The notes beneath the pieces were generated by a model. It worked only from the letters and a program-made list of their open reading frames with translations, made no database searches and was not told the origin of the DNA. A DNA stretch of 64,000 nucleotides. Source: Minisyncoccota bacterium (GTDB lineage: Bacteria; Patescibacteriota; Minisyncoccia; Phycocordibacterales; DATDWN01). Numbering within the stretch: the first letter of the stretch is position 1; the number at the start of each line of letters is the position of its first letter. Below are positions 1,752 to 44,336 of the stretch, piece after piece. Position numbers and translations under genes: made by a program. The stretch is from assembly GCA_036517395.1 (NCBI GenBank), contig DATDWN010000013.1:2191-66190 (forward strand). Reading direction: 5' to 3'.

Positions 1752-1790
1752 TAAACTCTCATTTAGAGTATTGTTCAGAAGAGGTGACTC

Positions 1791-1982
1791 ATGGTGATTC
1801 GATCGGACTCCGCCATTGACGAGATCGAAAAGGTCTTTAGATGGCGAATAGACGCACAAGAGCGCTGGTCAAGAGACGGTTGGGGTCCTCGAGGACAGCA
1901 CGAAATACAGAGGGAGCTGGACGCGGAAGGGTTCGAGAGGATTCGGAAGCTCCTTCGCCAGCACGGATCCCTACGGGTCTGA
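1791..1982 (+). CDS. Hypothetical 63-aa protein inside a GC-rich island (~1790-2035)
   Basis: The ORF lies in a local ~60% GC segment. A hairpin plus T-run (cgacgcaagg…ccctgcgtcggtgggtttttt) follows it. Coding status is uncertain. Confidence 0.25.
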   Translation: MVIRSDSAIDEIEKVFRWRIDAQERWSRDGWGPRGQHEIQRELDAEGFERIRKLLRQHGSLRV

Positions 1983-2047
1983 TGACCCCTCGACGCAAGG
2001 CCAAGGAACCCTGCGTCGGTGGGTTTTTTGGTATAAAATTGTTGCTT

Positions 2048-2076
2048 GACTTGCATTTGAAAATGACTATACTGTA
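2048..2076 (+). promoter_or_regulatory. Sigma70-like promoter (TTGACT-17-TATACT) upstream of the rRNA leader
   Basis: ttgacttgcatttgaaaatgactatact. Confidence 0.4.
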
Positions 2077-2116
2077 CAGGTGCTCTGAAAGGAGCATTTT
2101 ATGTTCGTTGACATTC

Positions 2117-2251
2117 ATCCGCACACCAAGTTTGCCATTGCTTTTTATGTCCTGCCAACATGTTTACCTAGATGTGAATTATGGTAGTGATATTAAACAA
2201 TGGTGCTATTTTTTTGAAAAAGCAAGACGATGGCAAACTTGGTGTGCGGAT
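2117..2251 (+). repeat. Inverted-repeat element family 1, copy 1 (22-bp perfect arms, 91-nt spacer) in the rRNA leader; no coding sequence downstream
   Basis: atccgcacaccaagtttgccat … atggcaaacttggtgtgcggat. Confidence 0.8.
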
Positions 2252-2471
2252 AAAAATGAATTAAAGTCCAAGCGTCACAATAAGCGCTTGGCAGAACGTA
2301 TTTATTCCGCCTCAACGGCGGACCCGCCGAGGAGGCGGGGTGCAAGAAACCAAAAGTTTCTTAAATATGATTCCGGAAAAAATCAATAAAAACATATAAA
2401 AGAATTCATCTGTCACGCAAGCCAGCATAAAAATAAATTTGTAAATAACCACATTTTTTACTCCGACAAGT

Positions 2472-2514
2472 GAGGAGCGCATGGGAGAGTAATCTCTCAC
2501 ACAGCGTCCGAGCG
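2472..2514 (+). ncRNA. Conserved structured motif family 2, copy A (GAGGAGCGC–hairpin with TAAT loop–CAGCGTCCGAGCG)
   Basis: A second copy at 8890-8932 keeps the flanks, while the hairpin stem sequence differs in a compensatory way. Confidence 0.4.
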
Positions 2515-2756
2515 CCGTCGAAGCAAAGAATGCGAATAGCATTCTTTATTTTGTTCCGTTCATTATAAGATTTGATCAATTTTTTATAAAGGGTCAGCAA
2601 AGCGAGTCTGAAAAATTTATTTTTCAGACGAGCGCGCGCCCCCTTTATATCAAAGATACCAATCTTTGATAAGAGTTTGATCCTAGCTCAGGATGAACGC
2701 TGGCGGTGTGGATAAGGCATGCAAGTCAAGGGGGCGCATCACATTGAGTACAATGT

Positions 2757-2880
2757 GAATTTAAAATTTTTACTTTAAAATTTAAAAATAATGACTAAAT
2801 GTTTTAATTTTAAAAATTAATTCATTAAAAATTAAGTTTAAATTCTAAATTCTAAATTAAAAATTCGCATCGCGCGCAGC
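2757..2880 (+). other. AT-rich expansion segment / intervening sequence at the tip of 16S helix 6 (V1)
   Basis: It is bracketed by the complementary ggcgcatcac … gtgatgcgtcacc. The content is low-complexity (aaatt/taaaa). Confidence 0.5.
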
Positions 2881-3274
2881 GTGATGCGTCACCGGCGAAC
2901 GAGGTAGTAACACGTGGGTACATACCCTGAAGTCAGGAATAACCAGTCGAAAGATTGGATAATACTTGATGTGATCTTCGGATCAAAGTCGCAAGACGCT
3001 TTAGGAATGGCCTGCGAAGTATCAGCTAGTTGGTAGTGTAATGGACTACCAAGGCTATGACGCTTAGGGGGAGTGAGAGCTTGGCCCCCACCGATGAGAC
3101 TGAGACACGGCTCATACACCTACGGGTGGCCGCAGCCGAGAATATTCGACAATGGACGAAAGTCTGATCGAGCGACACCGCGTGATGGATGAAGACCCTA
3201 GGGTCGTAAACATCTTTTATGAGGGAGAAAGTTTATTGATAGTACCTCACGAATAAGGGGTTTCAAAACTCGTG

Positions 3275-4220
3275 AAATGTGGGTTAAGCACCCACTTCCA
3301 TTTGAAACTTAAAAATTCGTAATTACCGTGCGCGACTTAGGGCCGTGAGGTTCTAAGCAAATTCGGCTTATATGCTGGAAATCTGTAAAGACTGCGCCAA
3401 ACACTTTTAAAAAAAGTGCGAGGTCCTTGACAGACAATCAGCAGGGAAGTCGGTATAATTAAGTAGTGAGTTTAACAAACAGACAAAAGGAAATAATAGT
3501 AGGCACTTTGTTGGGTGACGGATACTTGGAACATGATGGTTTCAAGGCGAGTAGATTGCAGATAAAGCAATGTGATCGCAAAAAAGATTATGTTTTTTGG
3601 CTCTATAACGAGCTGAAAAATTTAGTCAGAACTCCACTCAAACAAAGGAAAGATAACCAGCAATGGTATTTCAGCACCAGATCTCTAGTAGAGTTGGATT
3701 TTTTTAGAAGTCTTTTCTACGGATTTGGGAAAAAAGCTGTACCATCTATTATAAAAGAATTACCATTTTCTTCTCTTAGTCTTGCAGTCTGGTTTATGGA
3801 TGATGGGTCGTTGGATTATAGAGTAAAATACCATTACTCCTTTTCCTTCAGCACTGATTCATTCAATGAGCCAGATGTAAAACTTTTGACAGAATTATTA
3901 TTTGAAAAGTTTGATATAAAATCAAACATTCAGATGGTGGTTTCTCGAGGAAAGAAATATGTAAGACTGTATGTCGGTAAAGACGGAAGAGATAATTTTC
4001 TCTCTGTCGTAAGGCCTCATATTTTGTCCTGTTTTGATTACAAACTACCTCCGATTATAATTGACCCCTCAGAGACTGATCTTGAGAAAGTGAAGACTTT
4101 CAACACAGTGAGATAGAGAGATTTTTTTAAATCTTCTATAAGACGCCGAACCCCTTCCAAATGTAAATTTGTCAGGGTGATGATATAGTCCAATCCTCTT
4201 AGTGATAGGAGAAAAGAAGG
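3275..4220 (+). mobile_element. Group I intron in 16S rRNA (insertion near E. coli position ~515, just 5' of CCAGCAGCCGCGGTAATAC) carrying a homing-endonuclease ORF
   Basis: It interrupts a universally conserved 16S region. A P7/S-element-like gatgatatagtcc lies near the 3' end. The boundaries are approximate (±15 nt). Confidence 0.65.
3466..4116 (+). CDS. LAGLIDADG homing endonuclease (two-motif, single-chain) encoded within the group I intron
   Basis: The two LAGLIDADG motifs are GTLLGDGYLE and LAVWFMDDGS. Confidence 0.8.
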   Translation: MSLTNRQKEIIVGTLLGDGYLEHDGFKASRLQIKQCDRKKDYVFWLYNELKNLVRTPLKQRKDNQQWYFSTRSLVELDFFRSLFYGFGKKAVPSIIKELPFSSLSLAVWFMDDGSLDYRVKYHYSFSFSTDSFNEPDVKLLTELLFEKFDIKSNIQMVVSRGKKYVRLYVGKDGRDNFLSVVRPHILSCFDYKLPPIIIDPSETDLEKVKTFNTVR

Positions 4221-4857
4221 CCAGCAGAAGCGGTAATACGAGTACCCCGAGCGTTATCCGGAATTATTGGGCGTAAAGGGTGTGTAGGTGGTAGTGTTAG
4301 TCATTTGTTAAAACCCGAGGCTTAACCTCGGATCCGCGAATGATACGGCACAACTAGAGGATGGCAGGGATGTATGGAACTCATGGAGTAGGGGTGAAAT
4401 CCGTTGATATCATGGGGAACACCGAAAGCGAAGGCATTACATTGGGCCACTCCTGACACTGAAACACGAAAGCGTGGGTAGCGAATGGGATTAGATACCC
4501 CAGTAGTCCACGCCCTAAACGATGACAACTAGCTTTTCGGAGTATCGACCCTCTGAGAGGCGTAGCTAACGCGTTAAGTTGTCCGCCTGGGTAGTACGAC
4601 CGCAAGGTTAAAACTCAAAGGAATAGACGGGGACTTGCACAAGCAGAGGATTATGTGGTTTAATTCGATGGCAAACGAAGAACCTTACCAAGATTTGAAA
4701 CCCAACTGAAGACAGAGAGAAATTTTTGTTGTCCCACAAGGACAGTTGGGCAGGTGATTCATGGCCGTCGTCAGTTCGTGATTTGAATTGTTCCCTTAAG
4801 TGGGGTAACGAACGCAACCCTCGTTGTCTGTTACACGTATCAGGCGAGACTGCCCAG

Positions 4858-4990
4858 CTTTTTGTCCGGTAGGACATAAAGCTGAATAAAGAATAACGAA
4901 TATTGAATAAAGAATGAATGCAGAATACAAACTGTATTAAATCATTATTCATAATTCACGATTCATTATTCTCTTTTTGTTCGCTAGCGA
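4858..4990 (+). other. AT-rich expansion segment in the 16S hairpin equivalent to E. coli ~1160-1175 (cccagcTTTTTGT…ACAAAAAgctggg)
   Basis: Conserved 16S sequence flanks it on both sides (gactgcccagc … gctgggaggaaggcg). It contains three copies of GAATAAAGAA. Confidence 0.45.
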
Positions 4991-5792
4991 ACAAAAAGCT
5001 GGGAGGAAGGCGAGGATGACGCCAGGTCAGCATGTCCCTTTGATATCTTGGGCTACACACATAATACAATGGCGACTACAACGCGTTGCGACGCCGTAAG
5101 GCTGAGCCAATCGTAATAAAAGTCGCCCCAGTTCAGATTGGGGGCTGAAACTCGACCCCATGAAGTTGGATTTGCTAGTAATCGCGGGTCAGCTATACCG
5201 CGGTGAATACGTTCTCAAGTCTTGTACTCACCGCCCGTCAACTCAGGGGAGTTGGGAGTACCCGAAGTCCTGCATATGCAGGCCCACGGTAAACTCAATG
5301 ACAAAGAGTAAGTCGTAACAAGGCACGGCTAGGGGAACCTGGTCGTGGAATAATTCAATTTGAAATACTTTTCGCTTTGCGAAAGGAAAGTCATATCAAT
5401 CGCAAGAAAGATATGAATGTGTGTCGATTCCAGCCCCAGTTCTGAAACTAAATCTATAATGTCACGGAGTTTATAGTAGGTATAAACTTTGATAACAAAA
5501 ATAATATTGGTATCAGAACTGGAGCTGGAGGACAATGATTGTCTCGTCCTAAAACAATCTGACACTTGGAAAGACAGGAATGAACGGAACAAAATAAAGA
5601 ATGATATACCATCGTGTGGGACACGATGAAGTTGAAAGTTAAAAGTCCATAAAGTTTGTAAAGTAAATGTAACCACAAAAATACCGCTATAATAGGCGGT
5701 ATTTTTGATGCCGAAGTCCTGTACTGAGCTTTGCTCTGGTGCGGGATTGACTTTATACTGGGAAGTGTTATATAATAATAGACGGAGGAAAC

Positions 5793-6062
5793 ATGAATCG
5801 ATTTCGACAAGAAACTGGCCAGTCGGTTCCAAGACTGGTCGTCGTTATCGTTGGACTCGTTCTGGTCTATCTGGCGCTCAGCGCGTCAGAAGGGCCAGGA
5901 CAGGATCCTGTGCCGACTGCTTTGCAGTTGGCGGTGGTTTTCCTGGGCGCCGATGTGGCGCTCATGGCGTGGTTTCGCCTCGATCAGCGCGTTGCGCGCT
6001 GGTGGCGGGGGATGACTCGACCGGACAACCCATATCGGTCGAAGATCATCACACCCAGATGA
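5793..6062 (+). CDS. Hypothetical small membrane protein (two predicted TM helices) in a GC-rich island within the 16S–tRNA-Ile spacer
   Basis: A strong SD (ggaggaaacATG) precedes the ATG. The GC content is >60% against ~38% background. There are no recognisable motifs. Confidence 0.35.
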   Translation: MNRFRQETGQSVPRLVVVIVGLVLVYLALSASEGPGQDPVPTALQLAVVFLGADVALMAWFRLDQRVARWWRGMTRPDNPYRSKIITPR

Positions 6063-6232
6063 CAGCGAGAACCGACGGTTTCAGGAGGGCGACACGCAGA
6101 CAGCCAATGCGTGCCGCCCTTTTTCATTTGTGAAAAATGATTTTTTCTGCTATATTTTTTTAGTTAAATGCGCATGTAGTGAGGTTGGGGTGGGACCCAG
6201 CCGCAAGATCGGAGCGTGACGGCGCGAGGTGG

Positions 6233-6270
6233 GGTCACAGGTATTTTTCACCAGAAAAATACCTGTGACC
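6233..6270. repeat. Perfect 16-bp hairpin (ggtcacaggtattttt/aaaaatacctgtgacc); contains a GGGTCACA motif
   Basis: Read directly. It is followed by a tRNA-like D-arm fragment (agttggtagagca) that does not fold into a full tRNA. Confidence 0.5.
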
Positions 6271-6355
6271 AGTTGGTAGAGCAGTCGACCGACTCCTTAC
6301 AGGAGCTGTACACCTTTTGGATCTTTTTCAGAAGAATAAAATTAATTTGCTTTGT

Positions 6356-6428
6356 GCGCGTGTAGCTCAGTTGGTAGAGCACTCGACTGATACTCGTGGG
6401 GTCCATGGTTCGAATCCATGCACGCGCA
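6356..6428 (+). tRNA. tRNA-Ile (anticodon GAT)
   Basis: Manual cloverleaf: acceptor gcgcgtg/cacgcgc, D-arm gctc-agttggta-gagc, anticodon loop cTGATAc, T-arm catgg-ttcgaat-ccatg. It occupies the canonical position after the 16S. Confidence 0.8.
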
Positions 6429-6497
6429 CAAAGCACGGTAGTCTATTCTTTTGAAAAAGATCTCGAAAGGTCTTGCGAAAGTGTCTCACACTTTCTC

Positions 6498-6534
6498 ACT
6501 CGTGGGGTCCATGGTTCGAATCCATGCACGCGCA
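6498..6534 (+). repeat. Exact 37-nt direct duplicate of the tRNA-Ile 3' end (anticodon-stem 3' side through acceptor)
   Basis: actcgtggggtccatggttcgaatccatgcacgcgca is identical to 6392-6428. Confidence 0.8.
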
Positions 6535-6941
6535 CTTTGAGCAGAATTTGATATAATATAAAATAAAACATCATGATAAATCGCAAATCCACATTTTTCC
6601 TTGGTATTTTTATTTTTCTCATACCTTTTTTGGGCTTACCTAGTTCTTGGAAAACAGCCTTGGTTGTTATTTGTGGTTTGATTCTAGTTTTCCTCTCGGT
6701 AAAAGTTATCCTACCAAGGAAAACTATCGCCAATAGAAGTAGGATGAAAAAAGAAAGATCAATACCCGTCTTTGTTGAAAGCTTGCCAACATATTCGATT
6801 GATAACTCGGAAACAAAAGAAACCCAGCCGGAGATAGAAATAAAATAGCATGTCCGGTAGTAGAAGTTGACATTGCGCCAAAGGCGCATAAAACAGCAAA
6901 AATAATAGATATGATAAAGCTGAAATTAACAACTTATAAAT

Positions 6942-8258: not shown

Positions 8259-8407
8259 TTTAGACTTTAGACTTTAAAATTTTTAAATTAAGTTTAAATT
8301 ATAAATTTTAAATTAAAAATTGAGAGTGTTGACAGAGCCACTTATCATTTAATTCATCTTGTTGTATAATACAAAGCGATTATTAATTAAAAGTTTATTC
8401 CATAATC

Positions 8408-8869: not shown

Positions 8870-8889
8870 TATTTTTATCTGCGACGAGA

Positions 8890-8932
8890 GAGGAGCGCGT
8901 GAATGTGTAATCACATTCACAGCGTCCGAACG
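8890..8932 (+). ncRNA. Conserved structured motif family 2, copy B; followed by GC-rich nested hairpins at 8940-8998
   Basis: gaggagcgcgtgaatgtgtaatcacattcacagcgtccgaacg. The 9-bp perfect hairpin gtgaatgtg-taat-cacattcac replaces the gggagag-taat-ctctcac hairpin of copy A. Confidence 0.4.
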
Positions 8933-9084
8933 AGGAGTAGCAATGGTAAAACCCCGCCCCTCTGGGGCGGAACAGGGGTCCAGGGCTTGCCCTGGGGTTT
9001 CATACCATTGATAGACTAAATCTGAACAAAATAAACCCTATTGTTAGAGTTTATTTTGTTTTTATTGTATAATGCAGTGAAATT

Positions 9085-12125: not shown

Positions 12126-12146
12126 AAATCTAGAATACACATTGTT

Positions 12147-13151: not shown

Positions 13152-13158
13152 TTTCAAT

Positions 13159-24950: not shown

Positions 24951-25087
24951 ATCCGCACACCAACATTGCCATTGTTCTGCTTTTTCAATAATTACTCTGA
25001 TAGATTTTGATAAAACATGACAGAAACAAATAATATGGGTATTTCCGAGCAGAACATAAAAAGAGATGGCAATGTTGGTGTGCGGAT
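24951..25087 (+). repeat. Inverted-repeat element family 1, copy 2 (91-nt spacer). The downstream arm spans the start region of the GT4 gene.
   Basis: atccgcacaccaacattgccattg … atggcaatgttggtgtgcggat. An internal TTGATA-18-TAATAT promoter-like sequence is present. Confidence 0.8.
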
Positions 25088-28180: not shown

Positions 28181-28316
28181 ATCCGCACACCAACTTTGTC
28201 ATTGTTCTGTTTTTTCAAACTAGTATTTTCGTTTTTTGAATATCACTCCCAAAATAGATTCGTATATAACATATGTTTCAGAACACAAAAAATCATGACA
28301 AAGTTGGTGTGCGGAT
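28181..28316 (+). repeat. Inverted-repeat element family 1, copy 3 (90-nt spacer)
   Basis: atccgcacaccaactttgtcattg … atgacaaagttggtgtgcggat. Confidence 0.8.
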
Positions 28317-30381: not shown

Positions 30382-30387
30382 AAATAA

Positions 30388-30525
30388 ATCTGCATACCAA
30401 TTTTGCCATTGTTCTGATTTTTCAAAAAGAAATATATAAGTTAATCGATATACTGCTATGAAATTAAATTAAAGATAAATTATGAAAGAAGAACAAAAAA
30501 TCGATGGCAAATTTGGTGTGCGGAT
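30388..30525 (+). repeat. Inverted-repeat element family 1, copy 4 (92-nt spacer)
   Basis: atctgcataccaattttgccattg … atggcaaatttggtgtgcggat. Confidence 0.8.
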
Positions 30526-32965: not shown

Positions 32966-32966
32966 A

Positions 32967-34199: not shown

Positions 34200-34215
34200 C
34201 TTTATCAAATAAAAG

Positions 34216-35469: not shown

Positions 35470-35561
35470 AGTTTCATAATATTACTTTATTTTAGACTTT
35501 CTTACTAGCATCCATTTTACTGATTTGTTATACTACATCCGCACACTAACTCTTATTAAAC

Positions 35562-37799: not shown

Positions 37800-37878
37800 T
37801 TTTGAGGCCCATTGACAGAATATATAGATCAATATATAATAAACCTCGGAAGGATAAAACGGGTGGCGTGCGCCATCC

Positions 37879-38643
37879 ATGTTGTTTAACAGAAAGAGGG
37901 ACAGAATGTCTTCAAAAAAGACACGACAGAACTCGACCGACAAGAAGCCGACGTTGGAGATGCTCATCGACCTCACTCGTGTTGTCATGGGCGTCCTCGC
38001 GCGACTTTCGTTCGAGAAGGTTAACGTCCTCCTCGGCAACAAGACACTTCTCAGCAAGAAGCTGGAGAAGGTCTTTGAGATCGCGGCGGATCCGTTCGCT
38101 GCCGTACGCACCGAGTGGGAGAAGTTCTACCTCGACCACTGCAACATCGTCGTCGACTTCTCGGAAGTGACGATTCCTACAAAGCCGAGCGAGGGCTCAT
38201 GGCGGCTCATCTTCGTCTCGCAGGGTCTGACCATGAACGTCATACTCGCAGTGATGCGAGCGAAGTTCAAGGCATGGGTCTATGCCGAGGACTTGGACGG
38301 CAATGTGCCTACCAATACCCGCACGAGCGTCCAGAGCTACGCCAAGTGGGTACGCGACGGTGTTGAGCCAGACGAGGAATACCTCGGCAAGACTACTCGC
38401 GACGCAGACATGACGGGAACCATCGGCATGACGCTCCTCGAGCGTCTCGTGCTTGGGGTCAAGCATTTCGTCGAGACAGGGAAGCATCTCGACATCAAAG
38501 GCTGGACCATCTGCACGGGTTCTCGTTACTCGGACGGCAGCGTGCCGTTCGTGTACTGGGGCCCGAGCACGGCCGAGGTCAAGGTGAACTGGTGCAGCGT
38601 CGGCAGCTCGAATCCGACGTGCGGTCTCCGTCAGGCAGTGTGA
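37879..38643 (+). CDS. DGR target (variable) protein. The C-terminal ~39 aa are encoded by the VR. The gene is GC-rich (~56%). An alternative start at 37906 has an SD.
   Basis: The last 116 nt match the downstream TR, differing only at TR adenines. The C-terminus …VNWCSVGSSNPTCGLRQAV resembles the C-type-lectin-fold VR ends of DGR targets. Confidence 0.7.
   Translation: MLFNRKRDRMSSKKTRQNSTDKKPTLEMLIDLTRVVMGVLARLSFEKVNVLLGNKTLLSKKLEKVFEIAADPFAAVRTEWEKFYLDHCNIVVDFSEVTIPTKPSEGSWRLIFVSQGLTMNVILAVMRAKFKAWVYAEDLDGNVPTNTRTSVQSYAKWVRDGVEPDEEYLGKTTRDADMTGTIGMTLLERLVLGVKHFVETGKHLDIKGWTICTGSRYSDGSVPFVYWGPSTAEVKVNWCSVGSSNPTCGLRQAV
38519..38634 (+). repeat. DGR variable repeat (VR)
   Basis: 116-nt alignment to 38934-39049. 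All 14 mismatches have A in the TR. Confidence 0.8.
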
Positions 38644-38651
38644 TTTTCTCT

Positions 38652-38697
38652 TGTTCTCTTTTCACTTTTACCCTGCATTCGTGCAACCTTTTTCTTG
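38652..38697 (+). other. 18-bp RNA-type hairpin directly 3' of the VR, with three G·U wobbles, so strand-specific
   Basis: ccctgcattcgtgcaacc-tttttctt-ggttgcgcgggtgcaggg. Confidence 0.5.
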
Positions 38698-38933
38698 GTT
38701 GCGCGGGTGCAGGGTAATTTCGTATACTAAACATGGCTGTTAAGCTAGTCAGTGTCTATTTTACAAAAATAATATTGATGGTAGTTTGCCAAACATAAAA
38801 CTGCTTGTGAGTGTTTATGCATAGATGATTACAAGTGTGATGATGCAACACAGTGCCTGAGACATCAGGGTATAACACAGAGACTTTGGAAACAGAGAAT
38901 CGGTGAAATGGAAGAATGCTCACAAAAAAGACT

Positions 38934-39049
38934 GTTCTCGTAACTCGGACGGCAACGTGCCGATCGTGTACTGGAACCCGAACACGGCCAAGGTCAAGGT
39001 GAACTGGTACAGCGTCGACAACTCGAATCCGACGAACGGTCTCCGTCAG
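38934..39049 (+). repeat. DGR template repeat (TR), rich in AAC codons
   Basis: It is non-coding in the VR frame. 14 adenines correspond to non-A bases in the VR. Confidence 0.8.
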
Positions 39050-39072
39050 AAGTTTTAGCAAAGAATCTCGAT

Positions 39073-39360
39073 CTAGGTCGGGATTTTTTGTTGTTCCATA
39101 TATTTTATCCATTGATTTGTCATCTTCGATGTTTCTATGACAAGCCCTTCTATTCTTATGTACGCTTTCTCCTCGATGATTTTCAGTTCATGTTCCATGC
39201 GGACAAAATTCTTTAGGATTTCCAAAAGTATTCGAGCCTTTTCTAAAGTTTCCAGCTTATTATTTTTGTGAGAGTAGTAAGCTTTTATAAGCAAGTACAT
39301 TATTTCTTGGGCCGTCCCTTCGATGTATGCATGAATTCCAAGTTTGTCAGATTTCGGCAA
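39073..39360 (-). CDS. Avd-like small helical accessory protein of the DGR (four-helix-bundle family), divergently oriented to the RT
   Basis: 95 aa, predicted all-helical and charged. It sits between the TR and the RT. The assignment rests on position and composition. Confidence 0.4.
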   Translation of the reverse strand: MPKSDKLGIHAYIEGTAQEIMYLLIKAYYSHKNNKLETLEKARILLEILKNFVRMEHELKIIEEKAYIRIEGLVIETSKMTNQWIKYMEQQKIPT

Positions 39361-39434
39361 TTTCTTTCCTGTCTGGTATATGACAATGTATACTTGTTTA
39401 ATACTATGAATAATAGAAATATCGCTGTTGTTGC

Positions 39435-39443
39435 GGGGGGGGG
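39435..39443. repeat. Homopolymeric G9 tract in the avd–RT divergent intergenic region
   Basis: ttgcgggggggggagc. Confidence 0.6.
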
Positions 39444-39458
39444 AGCACTATTGGAAAT

Positions 39459-40457
39459 TTGTTTCATAATATTGTCAGTCTATCAAATTTGCTCCACGCA
39501 TGGGAAGAGTTCAAAAGAGGAAAGTCAAAGAAAAAAGATGTCGCTCTCTTTGAGCTTAATCTCGAGGATAATATTTTTGAGTTACACAGAAGCCTAGTCT
39601 CTAAAGCATATCAGCACACGGAGTATGAGGCTTTTTATATTAGTGATCCAAAACTAAGGAATATACACAAGGCATCTGTGCGTGATCGTGTTGTTCATCA
39701 AGCTGTATATAGAATTTTGTGCCAGATTTTTGATAAACATTTTATATATGATTCTTACTCATCGCGAAAATCGCGGGGAACACATTTGGGTGTAAGGCGT
39801 TCTTATAAGGCTTGTCGTAAAGTAAGTAAAAATTGGAGAAGAAAAATCTACATACTGAAATGCGATGTCAGAAAATTCTTTGATTCAATGGATCACTCTA
39901 TTCTGCGTGTTCTTATTGAGAAAAAAGTATTATGTTTGGAGACAATGAGGCTGGTCGATTTGGTTTTGGAGAGTTTCAAGAAAGAAACGGGAAAGGGTCT
40001 GCCACTAGGCAATGTTACAAGCCAACTTTTTGCCAATATTTACCTCGATCAATTTGACCAGTTTGTGAAGCATGGCCTTAAAATGAGGTATTATTTCAGA
40101 TATTGCGACGATTTTATTATTATTTCTGAAAATAAACAGTTTTTATCTGAACTTGTGGATAAGATTAAAATATTTCTGGATCAAAATCTGCTACTCAAAC
40201 TTCATCCTGATAAAGTTGAGATCAGAAGCATGAGGCAGGGAATAGATTTTCTCGGTTATGTGTGTCTGCCGAACATGATTGTATTGAGGACCAAGACAAA
40301 AAAAAGAATTATAAAAAAGATAAAGATAATGTTTGGAAAATTAAAAGCGGGAGAGATTTCACTTACCACATTCAAAAACACTCTAATGTCTTATCTAGGC
40401 GTCGTATCTCACTGTTGTAGTAGGGAAATAGAATTTTACATAAAACGCTTTTTATAA
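39459..40457 (+). CDS. Reverse transcriptase, DGR type
   Basis: RT motif 4 reads LPLGNVTSQLFANIYL (the SQ variant typical of DGR RTs). Motif 5 reads RYCDDFII (YxDD). It is adjacent to the TR/VR pair. Confidence 0.8.
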   Translation: MFHNIVSLSNLLHAWEEFKRGKSKKKDVALFELNLEDNIFELHRSLVSKAYQHTEYEAFYISDPKLRNIHKASVRDRVVHQAVYRILCQIFDKHFIYDSYSSRKSRGTHLGVRRSYKACRKVSKNWRRKIYILKCDVRKFFDSMDHSILRVLIEKKVLCLETMRLVDLVLESFKKETGKGLPLGNVTSQLFANIYLDQFDQFVKHGLKMRYYFRYCDDFIIISENKQFLSELVDKIKIFLDQNLLLKLHPDKVEIRSMRQGIDFLGYVCLPNMIVLRTKTKKRIIKKIKIMFGKLKAGEISLTTFKNTLMSYLGVVSHCCSREIEFYIKRFL

Positions 40458-40542
40458 AAAGTTATCCACACTTTTTATAAAAATCCAACTTGATTTTATT
40501 TTTTTGTACTATAATTAACGCAGGTCGGAAACAAAAAAATAA

Positions 40543-40681
40543 ATCCGCACACCAACTTTGATCTCGTTGCATTTGTCTCAAAGTTTAGTTGTACATCTTG
40601 AATTTAGATATAACTTCTAAATTTTGTTTGACTGTTTATGTGGCAACAGGGAGACAAGACCAAAGTTGGTGTTCGGATAAA
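40543..40681 (+). repeat. Inverted-repeat element family 1, copy 5 (100-nt spacer; arms extended by gcaacagggagac)
   Basis: atccgcacaccaactttg…ctcgttgc … gcaacagggagacaagaccaaagttggtgttcggataaa. Confidence 0.7.
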
Positions 40682-40744
40682 GTATACTTTATTAAAAAAT
40701 AATTTAGTTGAATACTTGTCACAGAGTAGTCAACAATAAATATC

Positions 40745-40786
40745 ATGGCAGCAAAAAAGAAGAAGAAAGCAAAGAAGCGAGCATAG
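40745..40786 (+). CDS. Mini-ORF encoding MAAKKKKKAKKRA, between two family-1 elements
   Basis: An ATG…TAG read directly. Coding status is unproven. Confidence 0.15.
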   Translation: MAAKKKKKAKKRA

Positions 40787-40855
40787 TCCCGTAGTAGAGC
40801 GAAGCTCACTACAGGATTGCATCTCTGCTTTTCTAAAAAATCAATTTGATTTTTC

Positions 40856-40879
40856 AAAAATCCGCACGTGCGGATTTTT
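40856..40879. repeat. Perfect palindrome AAAAATCCGCAC|GTGCGGATTTTT, made of two abutting family-1 core half-sites
   Basis: Read directly. Confidence 0.8.
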
Positions 40880-40885
40880 GTTTTT

Positions 40886-41020
40886 ATCCGCACACTAATT
40901 TTGGCATCGTCTCCCTGTTGCTATATAGAGGGGCTGCAAAAGTATCAGATTGTATCTAAATGTGGCTGTATATCTAGAATTTGAGACTAGATGCAACTAT
41001 GCCAAATTTAGTGTGCGGAT
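40886..41020 (+). repeat. Inverted-repeat element family 1, copy 6 (91-nt spacer), 40 nt upstream of secA
   Basis: atccgcacactaattttggcat…gtctccctgttgc … atgccaaatttagtgtgcggat. Confidence 0.8.
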
Positions 41021-41060
41021 GAATGTTAAAATCAGCATTTTATGCTAAAATGAGTCACAT

Positions 41061-43592
41061 ATGGCAATTTTAGATAAGCTATTCGGCTCAGAATCCTCAA
41101 GGACTTTGAAGGAAATACAGCCCCTAGTTGATAAAATTAACGCTCTGGAGAGCGGTATTTCCGTGCTGTCTGATGCAGAACTGAAAGCTAAAACCCCTGA
41201 ATTCAAAAAACGTCTCGTACAAGGTGAGACCTTGGATGATTTATTGCCTGAGGCCTTTGCTGTAGTGCGCGAGGCCAGTAAGAGATGTCACGACGAGAGA
41301 CATTTCGATGTTCAACTTATGGGTGGCATCGTTTTACATCATGGAAGTATTGCCGAAATGCGAACAGGAGAAGGAAAAACTCTTATTGCTACTTTGCCGG
41401 CCTATCTTAACTCTCTTGCTGGACTCGGTATTCATGTGGTTACAGTAAACGATTATCTTTCACGTCGTGACGCGGTTTGGATGGGAGAGATTTATGATTT
41501 TCTTGGAGTTTCTGTTGGAGTAATAAACAACGCCGAATCTTTTATATATGACCCAACACATAAAGAGCTAGATGAAAAAAGAGACGAAGTAGCTTCTTTC
41601 AAAGTTGTGACAGAGTTTCTTCGTCCGTGCACAAGACGCGAGGCTTATCACGCCGATATAACATATGGAACGAACAATGAATACGGTTTTGATTATTTGA
41701 GGGATAACATCGAGTATGAAGAAAAAAATCTGCGTCAGAGAGAACCAAATTACGCTATTGTTGACGAGGTCGACTCTATTCTTATTGACGAGGCTCGTAC
41801 ACCTCTCATTATTTCTACGCCGACAATTGATTCTGACGAGATGTACAAAAAATTTGCCGATATATCGTCAAAACTGGAGACGGGTGAACATTATGCTGTT
41901 GATGAAAAGTTCAAAACAATATCGCTCACTGATTCTGGCATCACCAAAGCCGAGGAACTTCTCGGTGTTGAAAATATATACACCGAAAAAGGTATAAAAT
42001 ACGTGCATCATCTGGAAACAGCCGTTCGTGCGACGGCCCTTTTTCACAAAGACAAAGACTATGTGGTCAAGGATGGTGAGGTGGTGATAGTTGATGAGTT
42101 CACCGGCCGCTTGCAACCAGGAAGACGATGGTCAGAGGGCTTGCATCAGGCCATAGAAGCCAAAGAACACGTGGTAATCCAGAAGGAATCCAGAACTTTT
42201 GCTTCTATAACATTTCAGAACTATTTTCGGCTTTACAAAAAGCTTTCGGGCATGACTGGAACTGCGGTTACTTCATCGGAAGAGTTTTATAAAGTTTACG
42301 GTCTTCATGTTATTTCCATACCGACAAACAAACCAAATGCAAGGACTGATCGCAATGATCTTATTTTTCAAACAGAGTCGGGTAAGTTCAAGGCTATAAG
42401 CAAAGAAGTTAAAGAAAGACATGAAAAAGGCCAACCAGTTCTCATCGGTACGGTATCGATTGAGAAAAACGAGATGCTTTCAGAATATTTAAAAGCTGAG
42501 GGCATACCTCATGAAATTTTGAACGCTAAAAACCATGGAAGAGAGGCGGAAATTCTAGCTCAAGCGGGAAAACCAAAGTCTGTAACAGTTGCTACAAACA
42601 TGGCTGGTCGAGGAATTGATATAAAACTGGGAGGAAATCCCGGGTCGCTCGAGGCATATGAGGAGGTCAAATCAAAAGGCGGGCTTTTTGTTCTAGGTAC
42701 CGAGCGTCATGATGCGAGGCGTATAGACAATCAGCTCCGAGGTCGCTCCGGTAGACAGGGCGATTCCGGCGAGACGCAGTTTTTCGTTTCTCTGGATGAC
42801 CATTTGATGCGAGTTTTTGGCGGGGACTCCATAAAAAACATGATGGGTAAGCTCGGCATTGGGGAAGATGAGGCCATTGAAAACAAAATGATTACGCGGT
42901 CGCTCGAAAGCGCACAAGAGAAAATCGAAGGTTTCAACTTTGACGCACGAAAACATGTTTTGGAGTTTGACGATGTCCTGAATTTTCAGAGAAAGATTTT
43001 TTACGGCAGAAGAAGAGAAATTCTTCTGGGTAATGTCGAGATTGTTAAAAACTACATCAGAGAATTGTTGGTGGATGTAGATGAAAAAGAAAGGGAAGCA
43101 ATAGAAAAAAAACTCGAAAACAAAGACCCGCAGTATAGCGAGGCTTTGCGTCGAGTCATTCTACAAGTGATGGATATGTTTTGGGTTGAGCATTTGGAAG
43201 TGATGGATTATATGCGCTCTTCTGTTAACCTTCGCGCCTACGGTCAGAGAGACCCGCTTGTTGAATACAAACGCGAAGGACTGTCGCTTTTCAAAAATAT
43301 GGAAATTTCCATCGGCCAAGAAATTTTGAAACTTATTCCCCAAATAGTGCCTGAGATTAAGTTATCCAATGAACAGGTTAAGTTTGTGGAAGGAATGGAA
43401 GGAGCAAGTGCCCCAATTTCTCTTTCCACACCAAAAACTCCAGATGGACACCCCAGTACCAGAGCAAAGCTCGGTACGGGGCAAGGAAAAATTGGTCGTA
43501 ACGATCCCTGCTTCTGTGGAAGCGGTAAAAAGTTCAAAAAATGTGGGGAATTGAAAACCGAGGAACATCAGAAGATGATGAAAAATAAGTAG
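41061..43592 (+). CDS. secA: Preprotein translocase ATPase SecA
   Basis: …AEMRTGEGKTLIATLPAYLNSL…, DEAD-like motor motifs, and a C-terminal zinc finger KIGRNDPCFCGSGKKFKKCGE. Confidence 0.9.
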   Translation: MAILDKLFGSESSRTLKEIQPLVDKINALESGISVLSDAELKAKTPEFKKRLVQGETLDDLLPEAFAVVREASKRCHDERHFDVQLMGGIVLHHGSIAEMRTGEGKTLIATLPAYLNSLAGLGIHVVTVNDYLSRRDAVWMGEIYDFLGVSVGVINNAESFIYDPTHKELDEKRDEVASFKVVTEFLRPCTRREAYHADITYGTNNEYGFDYLRDNIEYEEKNLRQREPNYAIVDEVDSILIDEARTPLIISTPTIDSDEMYKKFADISSKLETGEHYAVDEKFKTISLTDSGITKAEELLGVENIYTEKGIKYVHHLETAVRATALFHKDKDYVVKDGEVVIVDEFTGRLQPGRRWSEGLHQAIEAKEHVVIQKESRTFASITFQNYFRLYKKLSGMTGTAVTSSEEFYKVYGLHVISIPTNKPNARTDRNDLIFQTESGKFKAISKEVKERHEKGQPVLIGTVSIEKNEMLSEYLKAEGIPHEILNAKNHGREAEILAQAGKPKSVTVATNMAGRGIDIKLGGNPGSLEAYEEVKSKGGLFVLGTERHDARRIDNQLRGRSGRQGDSGETQFFVSLDDHLMRVFGGDSIKNMMGKLGIGEDEAIENKMITRSLESAQEKIEGFNFDARKHVLEFDDVLNFQRKIFYGRRREILLGNVEIVKNYIRELLVDVDEKEREAIEKKLENKDPQYSEALRRVILQVMDMFWVEHLEVMDYMRSSVNLRAYGQRDPLVEYKREGLSLFKNMEISIGQEILKLIPQIVPEIKLSNEQVKFVEGMEGASAPISLSTPKTPDGHPSTRAKLGTGQGKIGRNDPCFCGSGKKFKKCGELKTEEHQKMMKNK
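43452..43482. repeat. Family-3 palindromic hairpin element inside the secA coding sequence, in frame (encodes …STRAKLGTGQ…)
   Basis: ccccagtaccagagcaaagctcggtacgggg. It lies in the linker preceding the zinc-finger tail. Confidence 0.6.
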
Positions 43593-43687
43593 ATTTAAGT
43601 GACAGAATAAAATTTATTGACACAGAACTTAAAATATCATAGAGTTAGGAAGGACATCAAACCCATAAATAAAGACTGGAGGCAGGG

Positions 43688-44257
43688 ATGGGACAGATAA
43701 TGTTCACCCTGCCGGCCGGCAGGGAGTTTGAGAGAACGTTTTTCGGTCTTCCCGTGAGCTGGGTTCCTTCCTACTGGGCTCCACGACTTGGGTTTGATGC
43801 TGCTATCCAGCAGGTCATCCAAGACAACTGGGCTCAGTTCGCTGAGGCTCAAAGGTTGGGGGCCTCGTACGTGCACAACCCGATTGAGCCCGAGATGGGC
43901 AGGACGCCGGATGTCTGGAGCATGGTAAAGGGGTATCTTCCAGAAGAGGTTGATGGCCGAAACCCGCCACTTGGCCTTTACGTGGCACTTGGTAGTTCCC
44001 TCGACCTGCACTATGGGGTCGATGCTTTCTTCTGGTGGGATGGTTGCTGTGCAACAGTTGACCTCTCTCTTCAGGAGAAGACCAAGGGGGCTCAGAATCC
44101 CAAGATGGTCCTTCATGCAGATATGCTGATTGGGCTGTCGATTTTACGCCGTGGTGGTCTAAACTGGTTCGGACGACGCATGGCCAGACTATTGATACAC
44201 CGACGGGAAGTGCTCGTCGGGACAGGAAGTAGGATTGGCAAAGTTCGTTGGGTGTGA
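43688..44257 (+). CDS. Hypothetical protein encoded on a GC-rich island (~57% GC) with its own TTGACA-17-TAGAGT promoter and strong SD
   Basis: Composition contrasts with flanking genes. SD ggaggcagggATG. A terminal hairpin lies at 44257-44295. Confidence 0.4.
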   Translation: MGQIMFTLPAGREFERTFFGLPVSWVPSYWAPRLGFDAAIQQVIQDNWAQFAEAQRLGASYVHNPIEPEMGRTPDVWSMVKGYLPEEVDGRNPPLGLYVALGSSLDLHYGVDAFFWWDGCCATVDLSLQEKTKGAQNPKMVLHADMLIGLSILRRGGLNWFGRRMARLLIHRREVLVGTGSRIGKVRWV

Positions 44258-44336
44258 TCCGGGCAGACTTAAACCGTCTGGCCCGGATTTCCGTATTAGC
44301 TGGAACTCGTCTTTATTTTGTGGTATTCTTTTTCAT

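What the first reader, a model, noticed from the sequence alone, without database searches (positions are those of the whole stretch)
1790..44300. Four GC-rich islands (55-62% GC), each carrying one ORF, in a ~38% GC genome
Segments 1790-2035, 5790-6130, 37860-38650 and 43680-44300 stand out sharply in base composition and codon usage. Two of the four ORFs have strong Shine-Dalgarno sequences (ggaggaaacATG, ggaggcagggATG) and sigma70-like promoters, whereas neighbouring native genes mostly lack clear SDs.

One island is the DGR target gene. Another sits inside the 16S–tRNA-Ile spacer. A third immediately follows secA.

The pattern suggests recent horizontal acquisition from a high-GC donor. 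For an episymbiotic Patescibacterium, the host would be the obvious candidate donor. These genes may be small secreted or membrane effectors.
Basis: seen in the sequence. Interest (0 to 1): 0.6.

Follow-up and report, generated by a model that had tools for sequence, protein, structure and literature searches.

The report
GC-rich Shine-Dalgarno-led accessory gene units
Four GC-rich stretches in this low-GC Zambryskibacteria genome are real, self-contained genes, one of them the variable gene of a diversity-generating retroelement; they come from the lineage's own fast-evolving accessory genes rather than a high-GC host, and they keep a classic ribosome-binding site although the 16S rRNA has lost its partner sequence.

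Summary
The four segments are the four highest GC peaks in the window: 55-58% GC against 39.8%, z about 3.3-4. Each is a monocistronic unit: a near-consensus sigma-70-like promoter, an SD-like motif, a GC-rich ORF and a terminal hairpin.

The interpretation, recent import from a high-GC host, is mostly not supported.
- Island 3 is the target gene of a complete DGR. Its family is large, and the one named relative is a Paceibacterota protein. The GC excess sits at synonymous sites (GC3 0.78). A cassette 65% identical shows the same excess while its RT is AT-rich, so the GC looks maintained rather than a donor footprint.
- Island 4 belongs to a family found only in Patescibacteria where a source names the organism. 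Homologues lie between secA and trx in low-GC relatives.
- Island 1 arrived with a copy of the secF 3' end.
- Island 2 has a positional analogue in a relative's 16S-tRNA-Ile spacer.

The surprise is the ribosome-binding site. The 16S rRNA here and in 13 relatives lacks CCUCC, and native genes lack SDs. Yet GGAGG is present in all 11 island-4 homologues read, next to a leader hairpin with limited covariation support.

The function of islands 1, 2 and 4 is unknown.

The parts
1729..1757 (+). Island 1: sigma-70-like promoter (TTGAAA-17-TAAACT).
   Evidence: 9/12 matches, the scan minimum; sequence.
1700..1745 (+). Duplicated copy of the secF 3' end (87% identical to 688-733), immediately upstream of island 1. 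It reads ...SPLLVTLEKLQKKG*.
   Evidence: blastn; sequence. L087's secF ends LQKKN.
1791..1982 (+). Island 1 ORF, 63 aa, preceded by GAGGTG (1779-1784). Soluble and rich in Arg, Glu and Asp. No homologue found in the libraries searched.
1986..2030 (+). Island 1 terminator-like hairpin plus T run.
5747..5776 (+). Island 2: sigma-70-like promoter (TTGACT-18-TATAAT, 11/12 matches).
5784..5788 (+). Island 2: GGAGG, 4 nt before the ATG.
5793..6062 (+). Island 2 ORF, 89 aa, with two hydrophobic segments and a basic tail. The DNA is exceptionally palindromic (fold z about -6 on both strands).
6087..6124 (+). Island 2 terminator-like hairpin (GGGCGACACGCA...TGCGTGCCGCCC) plus TTTTT.
37812..37840 (+). 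Island 3: perfect sigma-70 consensus promoter (TTGACA-17-TATAAT, 12/12 matches).
37879..38643 (+). Island 3: DGR target (variable protein) gene, 254 aa. The likely start is 37906, giving 245 aa, preceded by GAGGGACAGA. GC3 is 0.78.
38519..38634 (+). DGR variable region (VR).
38669..38716 (+). Hairpin with a 20-bp stem downstream of VR. It serves as terminator or as the DGR target-recognition inverted repeat.
38934..39049 (+). DGR template region (TR). It has 12 differences from VR, all at TR adenines.
39073..39360 (-). Avd-like accessory gene (bAvd, 32 bits, below the curated 40-bit cut-off).
39459..40457 (+). DGR reverse transcriptase (RVT_1). It is AT-rich: GC 0.35, GC3 0.35.
43617..43645 (+). 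Island 4: sigma-70-like promoter (TTGACA-17-TAGAGT, 10/12 matches).
43678..43682 (+). Island 4: GGAGG, 5 nt before the ATG. GGAGG is present in all 11 family members read: 5-6 nt before the start in 10, 2 nt in L184.
43688..44257 (+). Island 4 ORF, 189 aa. It belongs to an uncharacterised protein family; every member that carries a source name is from Patescibacteria. AF2 pLDDT is 88.9.
43707..43724 (+). Island 4 leader hairpin inside codons 7-13 (CCCTGCC-GGCC-GGCAGGG). Its 3' arm repeats the sequence next to the SD.
44258..44292 (+). Island 4 terminator-like hairpin (tccgggcag...ctggcccgga tttcc). The CCGGA-TTTTC motif recurs in most relatives.
5310..5360 (+). Context: the 16S rRNA 3' end reads ...GGAACCTGGTCGTGGAATAATTCAATTT and has no CCUCC anti-SD.
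   Evidence: PMC9297842.

Best explanation
The four islands are not one element. They are four independent monocistronic genes. All belong to a minority class of genes in anti-SD-less Paceibacteria: leadered, SD-bearing, GC-elevated, fast-evolving accessory genes.

What is shown for each island:
- Island 3 is the variable-protein gene of a functional-looking DGR cassette. The cassette was inserted between Wzy and secA.
- Island 4 is a resident family gene in a secA-trx 'slot'.
- Island 1 occupies a post-secF 'slot'. It came in with a copy of the secF 3' end, beside a RAYT-type transposase.
- Island 2 occupies a 16S-tRNA-Ile spacer 'slot'. One relative has a non-alignable but architecturally equivalent SD-led gene for a small protein with two hydrophobic segments in that spacer.

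What is inferred:
- These genes circulate and diverge within Patescibacteria, not from the host.
- Their GC-richness and GGAGG leaders are kept by selection on the mRNA (structure, stability, translational control) or by a GC-biased process. They are not leftovers of a donor's base composition.
- For island 4 the likely control is a switch between two pairings. Either the 5' arm of the leader hairpin pairs with the sequence next to the SD, or it pairs with the hairpin's 3' arm.

What the proteins of islands 1, 2 and 4 do is not established.
For: Anatomy shared by all four units: promoter, SD-like motif, ORF and hairpin.

Island 4:
- Seven syntenic homologues were found by tblastn and aligned with 26 invariant columns.
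- The profile search gave 203 proteins. All those that carry a name are from Patescibacteria, and none has a Pfam domain.
- Four more loci were read. Eight of the 11 members lie immediately upstream of trx, downstream of secA; in three of these other genes lie between secA and the gene.
- Gene GC exceeds locus GC in all 11, by 3 to 18 points.
- GGAGG is present in all 11, at 5-6 nt from the start in 10.
- In the leader hairpin, 79.5% of cells are paired against 33-47% for slid controls. Three pairs show compensatory changes.

Island 3:
- The DGR anatomy is complete.
- The family has 1603 representative clusters.
- The one named relative is a Paceibacterota protein.
- Against the L176 cassette, the target is 65% and the RT 68% identical, so they co-diverged. 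Four-fold sites are 70-73% GC in both targets and 35% in the window's RT; GC3 of the L176 RT is 0.33.
- With identity at four-fold sites of 0.48, against about 0.30 expected from composition, neutral decay toward 35% would need a starting GC above 100% (my arithmetic).
- DGR targets of unrelated sequence in L029 and L102 are also GC3-rich: 0.76 and 0.68, in loci of 40% and 43% GC.

Island 1:
- A 46-nt secF 3'-end repeat at 87% identity lies just upstream.
- Relatives L087, L100 and L090 carry GGAGG-led small ORFs directly after secF.

Island 2:
- L090 has, in the same spacer, a TTGACA promoter, GGAGG, a 72-aa ORF with two hydrophobic segments and a terminator.
- A colinear local alignment of the two proteins scores z = 3.2 (23/2000 shuffles).

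Background:
- The 16S of the window and of 13 relatives lacks CCUCC. This loss is known for a Parcubacteria subgroup (PMC9297842).
- In 81 of 100 loci, at most 8% of ORFs are GGAGG-led. In those loci the GGAGG-led ORFs are GC-shifted (Mann-Whitney p = 5e-4), an effect driven largely by the island-4 family.
Against: - Islands 1 and 2 have no demonstrable homologue. isl1 against the post-secF ORFs gives z = -0.05 and 2.05. isl2 against the L090 ORF gives no BLASTP hit at E <= 100. The 'slot' argument for them is positional only.
- Their ORF lengths are not significant, and isl2 could be non-coding.
- GC elevation is not universal. The island-3 homologues in L178-L181 and the DGR target in L058 are close to their loci's GC. 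Island-4 homologues range from +3 to +18 points. A single selective cause is therefore not shown.
- How a GGAGG could act without an anti-SD is unexplained.
- No expression data exist, and the VR shows no variation between assemblies.
- The anti-SD status of the island-4 and island-3 family loci (L007-L022, L176-L185) was not checked, because no 16S was read in them.
Confidence: 0.55

Rival explanations
1. Recent horizontal acquisition from a high-GC donor such as the episymbiont's host. On this view the GC content, the GARP-rich proteins and the canonical SD are unameliorated donor signatures.
For: - isl1, isl2 and isl4 proteins are GARP-rich (0.32-0.35, against 0.15-0.22 in native proteins).
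- Native genes and the 16S make no use of SD motifs, yet the islands have them.
- No homologue of isl1 or isl2 was found in any of the 80 secF loci of relatives, about 25 of which also hold the downstream 16S.
- L010 carries a 2-kb GC-rich insert directly after a tRNA gene.
- The secF-16S interval is variable between relatives.
Against: - No hit outside Patescibacteria was found for any island.
- isl4 is syntenic in low-GC relatives, with a conserved leader.
- The isl3 GC excess is synonymous only and is shared by a co-diverged cassette whose RT is AT-rich.
- The secF fragment next to isl1 is 87% identical to the resident gene, so the donor was a relative.
Confidence: 0.1
2. Repeated allelic (xenologous) replacement at fixed slots by recombination with other Patescibacteria. 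The donors would be GC-richer and still have an anti-SD. The GC content and the GGAGG would then be continually renewed donor footprints rather than features selected in situ.
For: - Island-4 homologues are only 33-45% identical, while the flanking SecA is 75-79% identical. This fits old allele lineages flanked by conserved genes.
- Presence and absence at the secA-trx junction is patchy.
- GC-rich Patescibacteria (55-60% GC) occur among the fetched loci.
- About half of Parcubacteria retain the anti-SD (PMC9297842).
- The secF 3' duplication shows that such recombination happened next to isl1.
Against: - No close allele (>50% identity) of isl4 was found among 5.8 billion proteins.
- Four-fold sites between the two GC-rich alleles (window and L018) are saturated, at 0.22 identity.
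- GGAGG and the leader hairpin are kept in all the low-GC relatives read, which decay would erase unless replacement is very frequent.
Confidence: 0.2
3. Islands 1 and 2 are not protein genes. Island 2 in particular would be a structured RNA, or an array of GC-rich palindromes (REP/BIME-like, perhaps linked to the nearby RAYT-type transposase), inside the rRNA spacer. The ORF would be a by-product of GC-rich sequence.
For: - isl2 folds at z = -5.8 to -6.1, and about equally on both strands. The other islands and control genes give z between +0.9 and -2.8.
- isl2 contains internal repeats of GGCGCTCAGCGCG-like units.
- ORF lengths are not significant.
- Other frames are open as well.
- A Y1 transposase with flanking palindromes lies in the same region.
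Against: - The promoter, the GGAGG at 4 nt, the ATG and the terminator bracket the 89-aa ORF exactly.
- The protein has two clean hydrophobic segments plus a basic tail. So does the SD-led ORF in the same spacer of L090.
- No Rfam family matches, even at E <= 1.
- isl2 shares no sequence with the RAYT-flanking palindromes.
Confidence: 0.15

Closest known systems
Diversity-generating retroelements (Bordetella phage BPP-1 mtd/avd/TR/brt type; CPR DGRs)
   Same: Island 3 with 38519-40457 has every sequence part of a DGR:
- a target ORF with a C-terminal VR;
- a TR with adenine-only differences;
- an Avd-like gene;
- an RVT_1 reverse transcriptase;
- a GC-rich hairpin after the VR.
The top, non-significant fold hits are Mtd, TvpA and C-type-lectin/FGE folds.
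   Different: - The whole 0.77-kb target ORF, not just the TR/VR flanks, is GC-rich at synonymous sites (GC3 0.78), while the RT and Avd genes are AT-rich.
- The DGR survey I read (PMC5758913) describes only GC-rich TR/VR flanks and whole-cassette GC deviation.
- Avd is on the opposite strand.
- No VR variation is seen between assemblies.
Genomic islets and horizontally acquired islands recognised by atypical composition
   Same: - Sharp GC and codon-usage discontinuities confined to single genes.
- Lineage-specific presence for islands 1-3.
- Proximity to a tRNA gene with partial copies, to a transposase, and to a duplicated gene end.
   Different: - No donor can be named.
- Two of the four belong to families found only in Patescibacteria where sources name the organism. 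One of these is syntenic in relatives.
- The composition contrast persists between co-diverged cassettes.
SD-sequestering leader hairpins (translational riboregulation, as in many bacterial mRNAs)
   Same: The island-4 leader has two alternative partners for one arm: the sequence next to the SD, or a hairpin arm inside the first codons. Base changes are compensated across homologues.
   Different: It occurs in organisms whose 16S rRNA has no CCUCC to compete for the SD. What the switch exposes the GGAGG to is unknown.
Anti-SD-less Parcubacteria (Tsurumaki et al. 2022, PMC9297842); from my own knowledge, Bacteroidota, where most genes lack an SD and a few keep a strong one
   Same: The genomic background has a 16S tail without CCUCC and native genes without SDs, many with a -10 box just upstream of the ATG.
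   Different: A small, GC-elevated gene class that conserves GGAGG in such a background was not described in the passages of that paper I read. In Bacteroidota the anti-SD is still present.

Membership tests
Diversity-generating retroelement (island 3 and neighbours) | TR/VR repeat pair whose differences fall at TR adenines | tested here: met
   116-nt repeat at 90% identity; 12 of 12 differences are at TR adenines.
Diversity-generating retroelement (island 3 and neighbours) | VR at the 3' end of a protein-coding target gene | tested here: met
   VR 38519-38634 lies within ORF 37879-38643. ORF length is significant (1/1000 shuffles). GC3 periodicity is present.
Diversity-generating retroelement (island 3 and neighbours) | Adjacent reverse transcriptase | tested here: met
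   RVT_1, E = 8e-22, at 39459-40457. DGR-clade motifs were not examined.
Diversity-generating retroelement (island 3 and neighbours) | Accessory variability determinant (Avd) | tested here: inconclusive
   bAvd, E = 1.9e-7, at 32 bits. This is below Pfam's 40-bit cut-off. The collection's precomputed hits list PF22296.
Diversity-generating retroelement (island 3 and neighbours) | C-type-lectin or other known variable-protein fold in the target | tested here: inconclusive
   AF2 pLDDT is 95.2. Foldseek against PDB gives no hit at E <= 0.001. The top hits are Mtd (E = 0.78), TvpA, CTLDs and FGE/EgtB.
Diversity-generating retroelement (island 3 and neighbours) | Ongoing diversification (VR heterogeneity) | tested here: not met
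   The VR-bearing assemblies from other samples (L001-L003) are identical through the VR at consensus level. Read-level variation was not testable.
Recently acquired genomic island from a high-GC donor | Atypical base composition and codon usage | tested here: met
Recently acquired genomic island from a high-GC donor | Absent from the same locus in close relatives | tested here: inconclusive
   Met for isl1 and isl2, though isl2 has a positional analogue in L090, and met for the DGR with isl3. Not met for isl4, which is syntenic in at least 8 relatives.
Recently acquired genomic island from a high-GC donor | Best hits in a plausible donor lineage | tested here: not met
   The only hits are from Patescibacteria or are unnamed metagenome proteins. 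Plasmid searches (isl1, isl2) and viral-contig searches (all four) found nothing.
Recently acquired genomic island from a high-GC donor | Integration scars or mobility genes bounding the island | tested here: inconclusive
   A secF-end duplication and a RAYT lie next to isl1. Partial tRNA-Ile copies lie next to isl2. In both cases the repeats do not bracket the island.
Structured non-coding RNA (island 2) | Folding energy beyond shuffled controls | tested here: met
   z = -5.8 to -6.1, but about equal on both strands, which points to DNA palindromes.
Structured non-coding RNA (island 2) | Match to a described RNA family | tested here: not met
   No Rfam match at gathering score or at E <= 1.
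Structured non-coding RNA (island 2) | Covariation in homologues | not testable with these tools
   No alignable homologue was found.
PD-(D/E)XK nuclease fold (island 4, a lead only) | Significant structural or profile match and catalytic D...(D/E)xK motif | tested here: not met
   All Foldseek hits have E > 0.4, although nucleases recur in the lists. PDB profile search found nothing. No consistent Pfam family among the 54 members. Invariant D106, D112 and D125 exist, but no ExK.

The most novel reading that the evidence does not exclude
In anti-SD-less Parcubacteria a distinct class of leadered, GC-rich genes conserves a canonical GGAGG at SD spacing. The class includes DGR targets, the secA-trx family, and small genes after secF and inside the rRNA spacer. 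Some of these genes also have SD-sequestering hairpins.

This would mean that GGAGG is read by something other than the 16S 3' tail. Possibilities are an unknown initiation or regulatory mechanism or, most radically, that these genes are built to be translated by a canonical ribosome elsewhere, for example in the host cell.
Probability: 0.12. Interest if true: 0.8.

Novelty: new variant of a known kind. Interest (0 to 1): 0.45.

Why it matters
The host-to-symbiont transfer story would have been attractive, but the data do not support it. What remains has two uses.

1. It warns that GC islands in CPR genomes need not mark foreign DNA. A DGR target keeps GC-rich synonymous sites next to an AT-rich RT gene across co-diverged cassettes. 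That makes the question of selection versus GC-biased conversion on hypervariable genes testable.

2. It identifies a small, recognisable gene class that keeps GGAGG leaders in a lineage whose ribosome has lost the anti-SD. This is a concrete handle on how translation initiation and its control work in these reduced bacteria.

Tried and rejected
- **Islands as extra DGR targets.** The TR matches only the known VR, and the islands share no DNA or protein similarity with one another.
- **Islands as known RNAs.** Rfam at gathering score and at relaxed E-values gave only rRNA, tRNA and long-hairpin noise.
- **A hidden 16S 3' exon carrying the anti-SD.** There is no CACCTCCTT or CCTCC between the 16S end and tRNA-Ile, and none conserved in relatives. 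The only CCTCC in the 16S gene lies in the intron.
- **Profile libraries.** Pfam, PHROGs, NCBIfam and PADLOC gave nothing credible for the four proteins.
- **Word-indexed protein searches.** isl2 and isl4 found only themselves. This was misleading for isl4: tblastn and a profile then found the family.
- **Phage or plasmid origin.** No viral-contig or plasmid relatives were found. One viral scan with the isl3 alignment could not be run.
- **Intraspecific variation for dN/dS.** Same-species contigs are essentially identical.
- **Homology of isl1 to the post-secF small ORFs of relatives.** Not supported.
- **A general link between GGAGG and GC across all loci.** It is statistically present but is driven largely by the island-4 family, so I do not generalise it strongly.

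Full report
**Observation**

The window is 39.8% GC, and 200-nt windows have an sd of 5.8%. They hold the four highest 200-nt peaks (0.59-0.63), above the 16S rRNA segments.

The landmarks are as stated:
- The 16S rRNA runs 2673-3293 and about 4225-5360. It is split by an intron carrying a LAGLIDADG ORF.
- tRNA-Ile is at 6356-6429. Island 2 lies in the spacer between them.
- Island 4 follows secA (41061-43592).
- Island 3 is the target of a DGR. VR is 38519-38634 and TR is 38934-39049, with 12 differences, all at TR adenines. An Avd-like ORF is on the minus strand, and the RT is at 39459-40457.

The organism is a Candidatus Zambryskibacteria-like member of the Paceibacteria. Its SecA is 75-79% identical to those MAGs.

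**Anatomy of the islands**

Each island is a compact monocistronic unit.
- The promoter scan places sigma-70-like sites directly upstream. The isl3 site is a perfect 12/12 match at 37812-37840. The isl2 site scores 11/12 at 5747-5776, the isl4 site 10/12 at 43617-43645, and the isl1 site 9/12 (the scan minimum) at 1729-1757.
- An SD-like motif follows: GGAGG 4 nt before the isl2 ATG, GGAGG 5 nt before the isl4 ATG, GAGGTG before isl1, and GAGGG before the second ATG of isl3.
- A GC-rich hairpin closes each unit.

The two GGAGG-ATG starts of isl2 and isl4 are the only intergenic ones in 64 kb. Only 3 of 44 long ORFs have any SD-like 4-mer upstream, and many have a TATAAT-like box just before the ATG.

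The 16S 3' tail reads GGAAUAAUUCAAUUU instead of GGAUCACCUCCUU.
- The same tail type occurs in all 13 relatives whose 16S ends I could read.
- No CCUCC lies downstream.
- The only CCTCC in the 16S gene is in the intron.

Loss of the anti-SD in a Parcubacteria subgroup is already published (PMC9297842).

**Coding status**

isl3 and isl4 are clearly coding.
- Their ORF lengths are reached in 1/1000 and 0/1000 dinucleotide shuffles.
- isl3 shows strong GC3 periodicity, 0.53/0.42/0.78.
- Both have protein families (below).

For isl1 and isl2 the ORF length alone is not significant: 68/1000 and 84/1000.

isl2 is exceptionally self-complementary. Its fold z-score is -5.8 to -6.1, and it is about as strong on the reverse strand. 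The other islands and control genes give z between +0.9 and -2.8. I keep 'non-coding palindromic or structured element' as a live rival for isl2. Against it, the promoter, GGAGG, ATG and terminator frame the ORF exactly. The product also has two hydrophobic segments and a basic tail.

**Island 4**

The word-indexed search found only the protein itself. tblastn against the secA loci of relatives then found homologues of 33-42% identity. They lie immediately upstream of trx/dsbB in L007, L008, L010, L018, L021 and L022. Several other relatives have secA directly followed by trx.
- The seven proteins align with 26 invariant columns.
- A profile search found 203 proteins. All that carry a name are Patescibacteria 'hypothetical proteins', and none has a Pfam domain.
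- Four more members were fetched. Eight of the 11 members read lie immediately upstream of trx, downstream of secA.

The AF2 model is confident (pLDDT 88.9). It has no significant structural neighbour. Nucleases of the PD-(D/E)XK kind recur among the non-significant hits, which I treat as a lead only.

Gene GC exceeds locus GC in all 11 members: 0.41-0.55 against 0.36-0.45, with GC3 up to 0.65.

All 11 members carry GGAGG before the start, at 5-6 nt in ten and 2 nt in L184. Most carry a TTGACA-type promoter and a CCGGA...TTTTC terminator.

Codons 5-12 (consensus A-L-x-x-G-R) form a hairpin, CCCUGCC-loop-GGCAGGG in the window.
- The Leu and Gly/Arg codon choices co-vary: CUG with GGC-AGG, and CUA with GGU-AGG. 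L008 pairs CUCUGC with GCAGAG.
- The hairpin's 3' arm repeats the sequence just after the SD (GGAGG-CAGGG). One arm therefore has two alternative partners.
- On the 11-sequence alignment, 79.5% of cells pair, against 33-47% when the partner is slid. Three pairs show double changes.
- The shuffle control is only moderately exceeded (21/500 and 27/500). L184 lacks the hairpin and L018 uses another register, so this structure is supported but not proven.

**Island 3**

HMMER against 1.84 billion representatives gave 1603 clusters for the target protein. The best hits were 67%, 60% and 51% identical. The one named member is from a Candidatus Paceibacterota MAG.

The DGR cassette is an insertion. 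In the roughly ten relatives where Wzy and secA stay adjacent, they are 0.4-0.85 kb apart and no RT is present.

The closest homologue (L176) sits in another DGR at a different locus. In that cassette the target is 58% GC (GC3 0.75), the RT is 36% GC (GC3 0.33) and the locus is 40% GC. This is the same split as in the window.

Comparing the window cassette with L176:
- The target is 65% identical and the RT 68% identical.
- Identity at four-fold sites is 0.48 for the target and 0.42 for the RT. About 0.30 and 0.27 are expected from composition alone.
- Four-fold sites are 70-73% GC in both targets and 35% GC in the window's RT.

My inference is as follows. About three-quarters of the signal at synonymous sites has been lost, equally in target and RT. 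Neutral decay toward the RT's composition would then require an impossible starting GC above 100%. The target's GC is therefore actively maintained, by selection or by a biased process. It is not an unameliorated import.

Further comparisons:
- DGR targets of unrelated sequence in L029 (GC3 0.76, locus 40% GC) and L102 (GC3 0.68, locus 43% GC) are GC islands too.
- Those in GC-richer loci (L058, L181) are not.
- Three homologues without an adjacent RT (L178-L180) are near their loci's GC.
- Three of five homologues have GGAGGAACA-type leaders. The window and L176 have GAGGGACA.

The AF2 model of isl3 has pLDDT 95.2. Foldseek gives no significant PDB hit. The top of the list is Mtd, TvpA, C-type lectin domains and FGE/EgtB, which fits a CLec-type variable domain but does not prove it. 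The DGR survey I read mentions GC-rich TR/VR flanks and cassette-level GC deviation, not a GC-rich whole target (PMC5758913).

**Islands 1 and 2**

Synteny is secF, 16S, tRNA-Ile, a small ORF, then DUF4015. It is conserved in many relatives recovered from metagenomes. None has a tblastn match to isl1 or isl2, and most show no comparable GC peak at those places. Both are assembled identically in several independent samples.

There are, however, positional counterparts.
- Directly after secF, L087 (SecF 81% identical), L100 and L090 carry GGAGG-led ORFs of 60-74 aa.
  - The L087 and L100 ORFs are homologous to each other (z = 8.75).
  - isl1 is not demonstrably related to them (z = -0.05 and 2.05).
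- In the window, the stretch directly after secF holds only a promoter and a terminator (801-925). By eye, that terminator resembles the one after L087's small ORF.
- Next comes a RAYT-type Y1 transposase with flanking palindromes (985-1617). Then comes a second copy of the last 46 nt of secF, 87% identical and ending KKG* like L087's KKN*. Then comes isl1.
- I infer that isl1 came in together with a piece of a related organism's secF end.
- In the 16S-tRNA-Ile spacer of L090 there is a unit with the same design as isl2.
  - It has a TTGACA promoter, GGAGG, a 72-aa protein with two hydrophobic segments and a basic tail, and a terminator. It is 52% GC in a 44% GC locus.
  - BLASTP finds nothing.
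  - A colinear local alignment scores z = 3.2 (23/2000 shuffles).
  - This is an analogue, possibly a remote homologue.

**Amino-acid composition**

The composition splits the set in two. The isl1, isl2 and isl4 proteins are GARP-rich (0.32-0.35) and FYMINK-poor. isl3 is native-like (GARP 0.21), and its GC excess is almost purely synonymous.

**How general is the pattern?**

In 81 of 100 fetched Paceibacteria loci, at most 8% of ORFs are GGAGG-led. In those loci the 32 GGAGG-led ORFs are shifted to higher GC (Mann-Whitney p = 5e-4). The effect is carried largely by the island-4 family plus a GC island in L013, so I do not over-generalise.

Other GC islands in relatives also hold ORFs with SD-like leaders.
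- L010 has a 2-kb island right after a tRNA gene, with two lipoprotein-like ORFs.
- L042 has an ORF with GC3 0.81.

**Conclusion**

The islands are real and form a recognisable class, but they are not host-derived imports. They are best read as members of the fast-evolving accessory gene pool of Paceibacteria itself. One is a DGR target, one is a resident gene of unknown function, and two are lineage-specific occupants of variable slots. Their GC-richness and SD-type leaders appear to be maintained.

The unexplained core is why GGAGG, in one family together with an SD-sequestering hairpin, is conserved in organisms whose 16S rRNA has no anti-SD. The anti-SD status of the island-4 and island-3 family loci themselves was not checked.

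The functions of isl1, isl2 and isl4, the coding status of isl1 and isl2, and the force that keeps the GC high are not settled by these data.

Noticed in passing
window 5310-5360 (16S 3' end); L069, L090-L166 16S ends: The 16S rRNA ends ...GGAAUAAUUCAAUUU with no CCUCC anti-SD. The same holds in 13 relatives. Native genes lack SDs, and many have a -10-like box just upstream of the ATG, which suggests leaderless or short-leader mRNAs. Loss of the anti-SD is published for a Parcubacteria subgroup (PMC9297842).
   Followed up: yes
window 2117-2251, 24951-25087, 28181-28316, 40543-40678, 40886-41020; solo ends at 30516-30525 and 35537-35546: A family of intergenic inverted-repeat (MITE-like) elements of about 135 nt with ATCCGCACAC termini: 14 hits against 1.55 expected. 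Two tandem copies lie between the DGR RT gene and secA, and one lies just after island 1. They hit only plant miRNA hairpin models in Rfam, below threshold.
   Followed up: partly
window 949-1676: A RAYT-like Y1 (IS200-type) transposase ORF at 985-1617, flanked by palindromes: CTTGGCGGCTTAGCCGCCAAG (949-971, repeated at 1416-1438) and GTGACTCACTTAGCGGTG/CACCGCCAAGTGAGTCAC (1640-1676). It sits between two copies of the secF 3' end (688-733 and 1700-1745).
   Followed up: partly
window 801-925: A strong promoter (TTGACA-18-TATAGT with upstream TG, 11/12 matches), followed after about 40 nt by a GC-rich hairpin plus T run. This is either a possible small RNA or the relic of the post-secF small gene seen in L087. 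By eye the terminator resembles L087's. There is no Rfam hit.
   Followed up: partly
window 6270-6292, 6356-6429, 6498-6535: tRNA-Ile is flanked by partial copies of itself. A 5'-part copy (91% identity) starts 98 nt upstream of its counterpart in the gene, and a perfect copy of the 3' 38 nt starts 106 nt downstream. These look like scars of integration or excision at the tRNA gene.
   Followed up: no
window 3294-4224 (ORF 3466-4116): The 16S rRNA gene is interrupted near E. coli position about 500-515 by an insertion of about 0.9 kb. It encodes a LAGLIDADG_2 endonuclease and gives weak group I intron hits. Relatives carry LAGLIDADG insertions at various 16S sites.
   Followed up: partly
L010 15939-18049: A relative has a GC-rich block of about 2 kb (200-nt maxima 0.52-0.65 in a 37% GC locus) starting right at a tRNA gene. 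It holds two lipoprotein-like ORFs led by AGGAG and GGGAG. This is the clearest case of a tRNA-adjacent GC-rich insertion in this clade.
   Followed up: partly
L093 13717-13929, L111 7518-7820, L090 13498-13716 (16S-tRNA-Ile spacers): Several relatives carry a small ORF for a hydrophobic, membrane-like protein inside the 16S-tRNA-Ile spacer, of at least two unrelated sequence types. Protein genes nested in the rRNA spacer may be common in this clade.
   Followed up: partly
L011 4628-5197: A GC-rich (52% GC in a 36% GC locus) 189-aa ORF just upstream of trx. By eye it resembles the N-terminal part of the L058 DGR target, but no RT is nearby.
   Followed up: no
L178, L179, L180 (8001-8810): Homologues of the DGR target family occur without any adjacent reverse transcriptase and with ordinary GC content. 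They may be former targets, remote targets or non-diversified paralogues.
   Followed up: no
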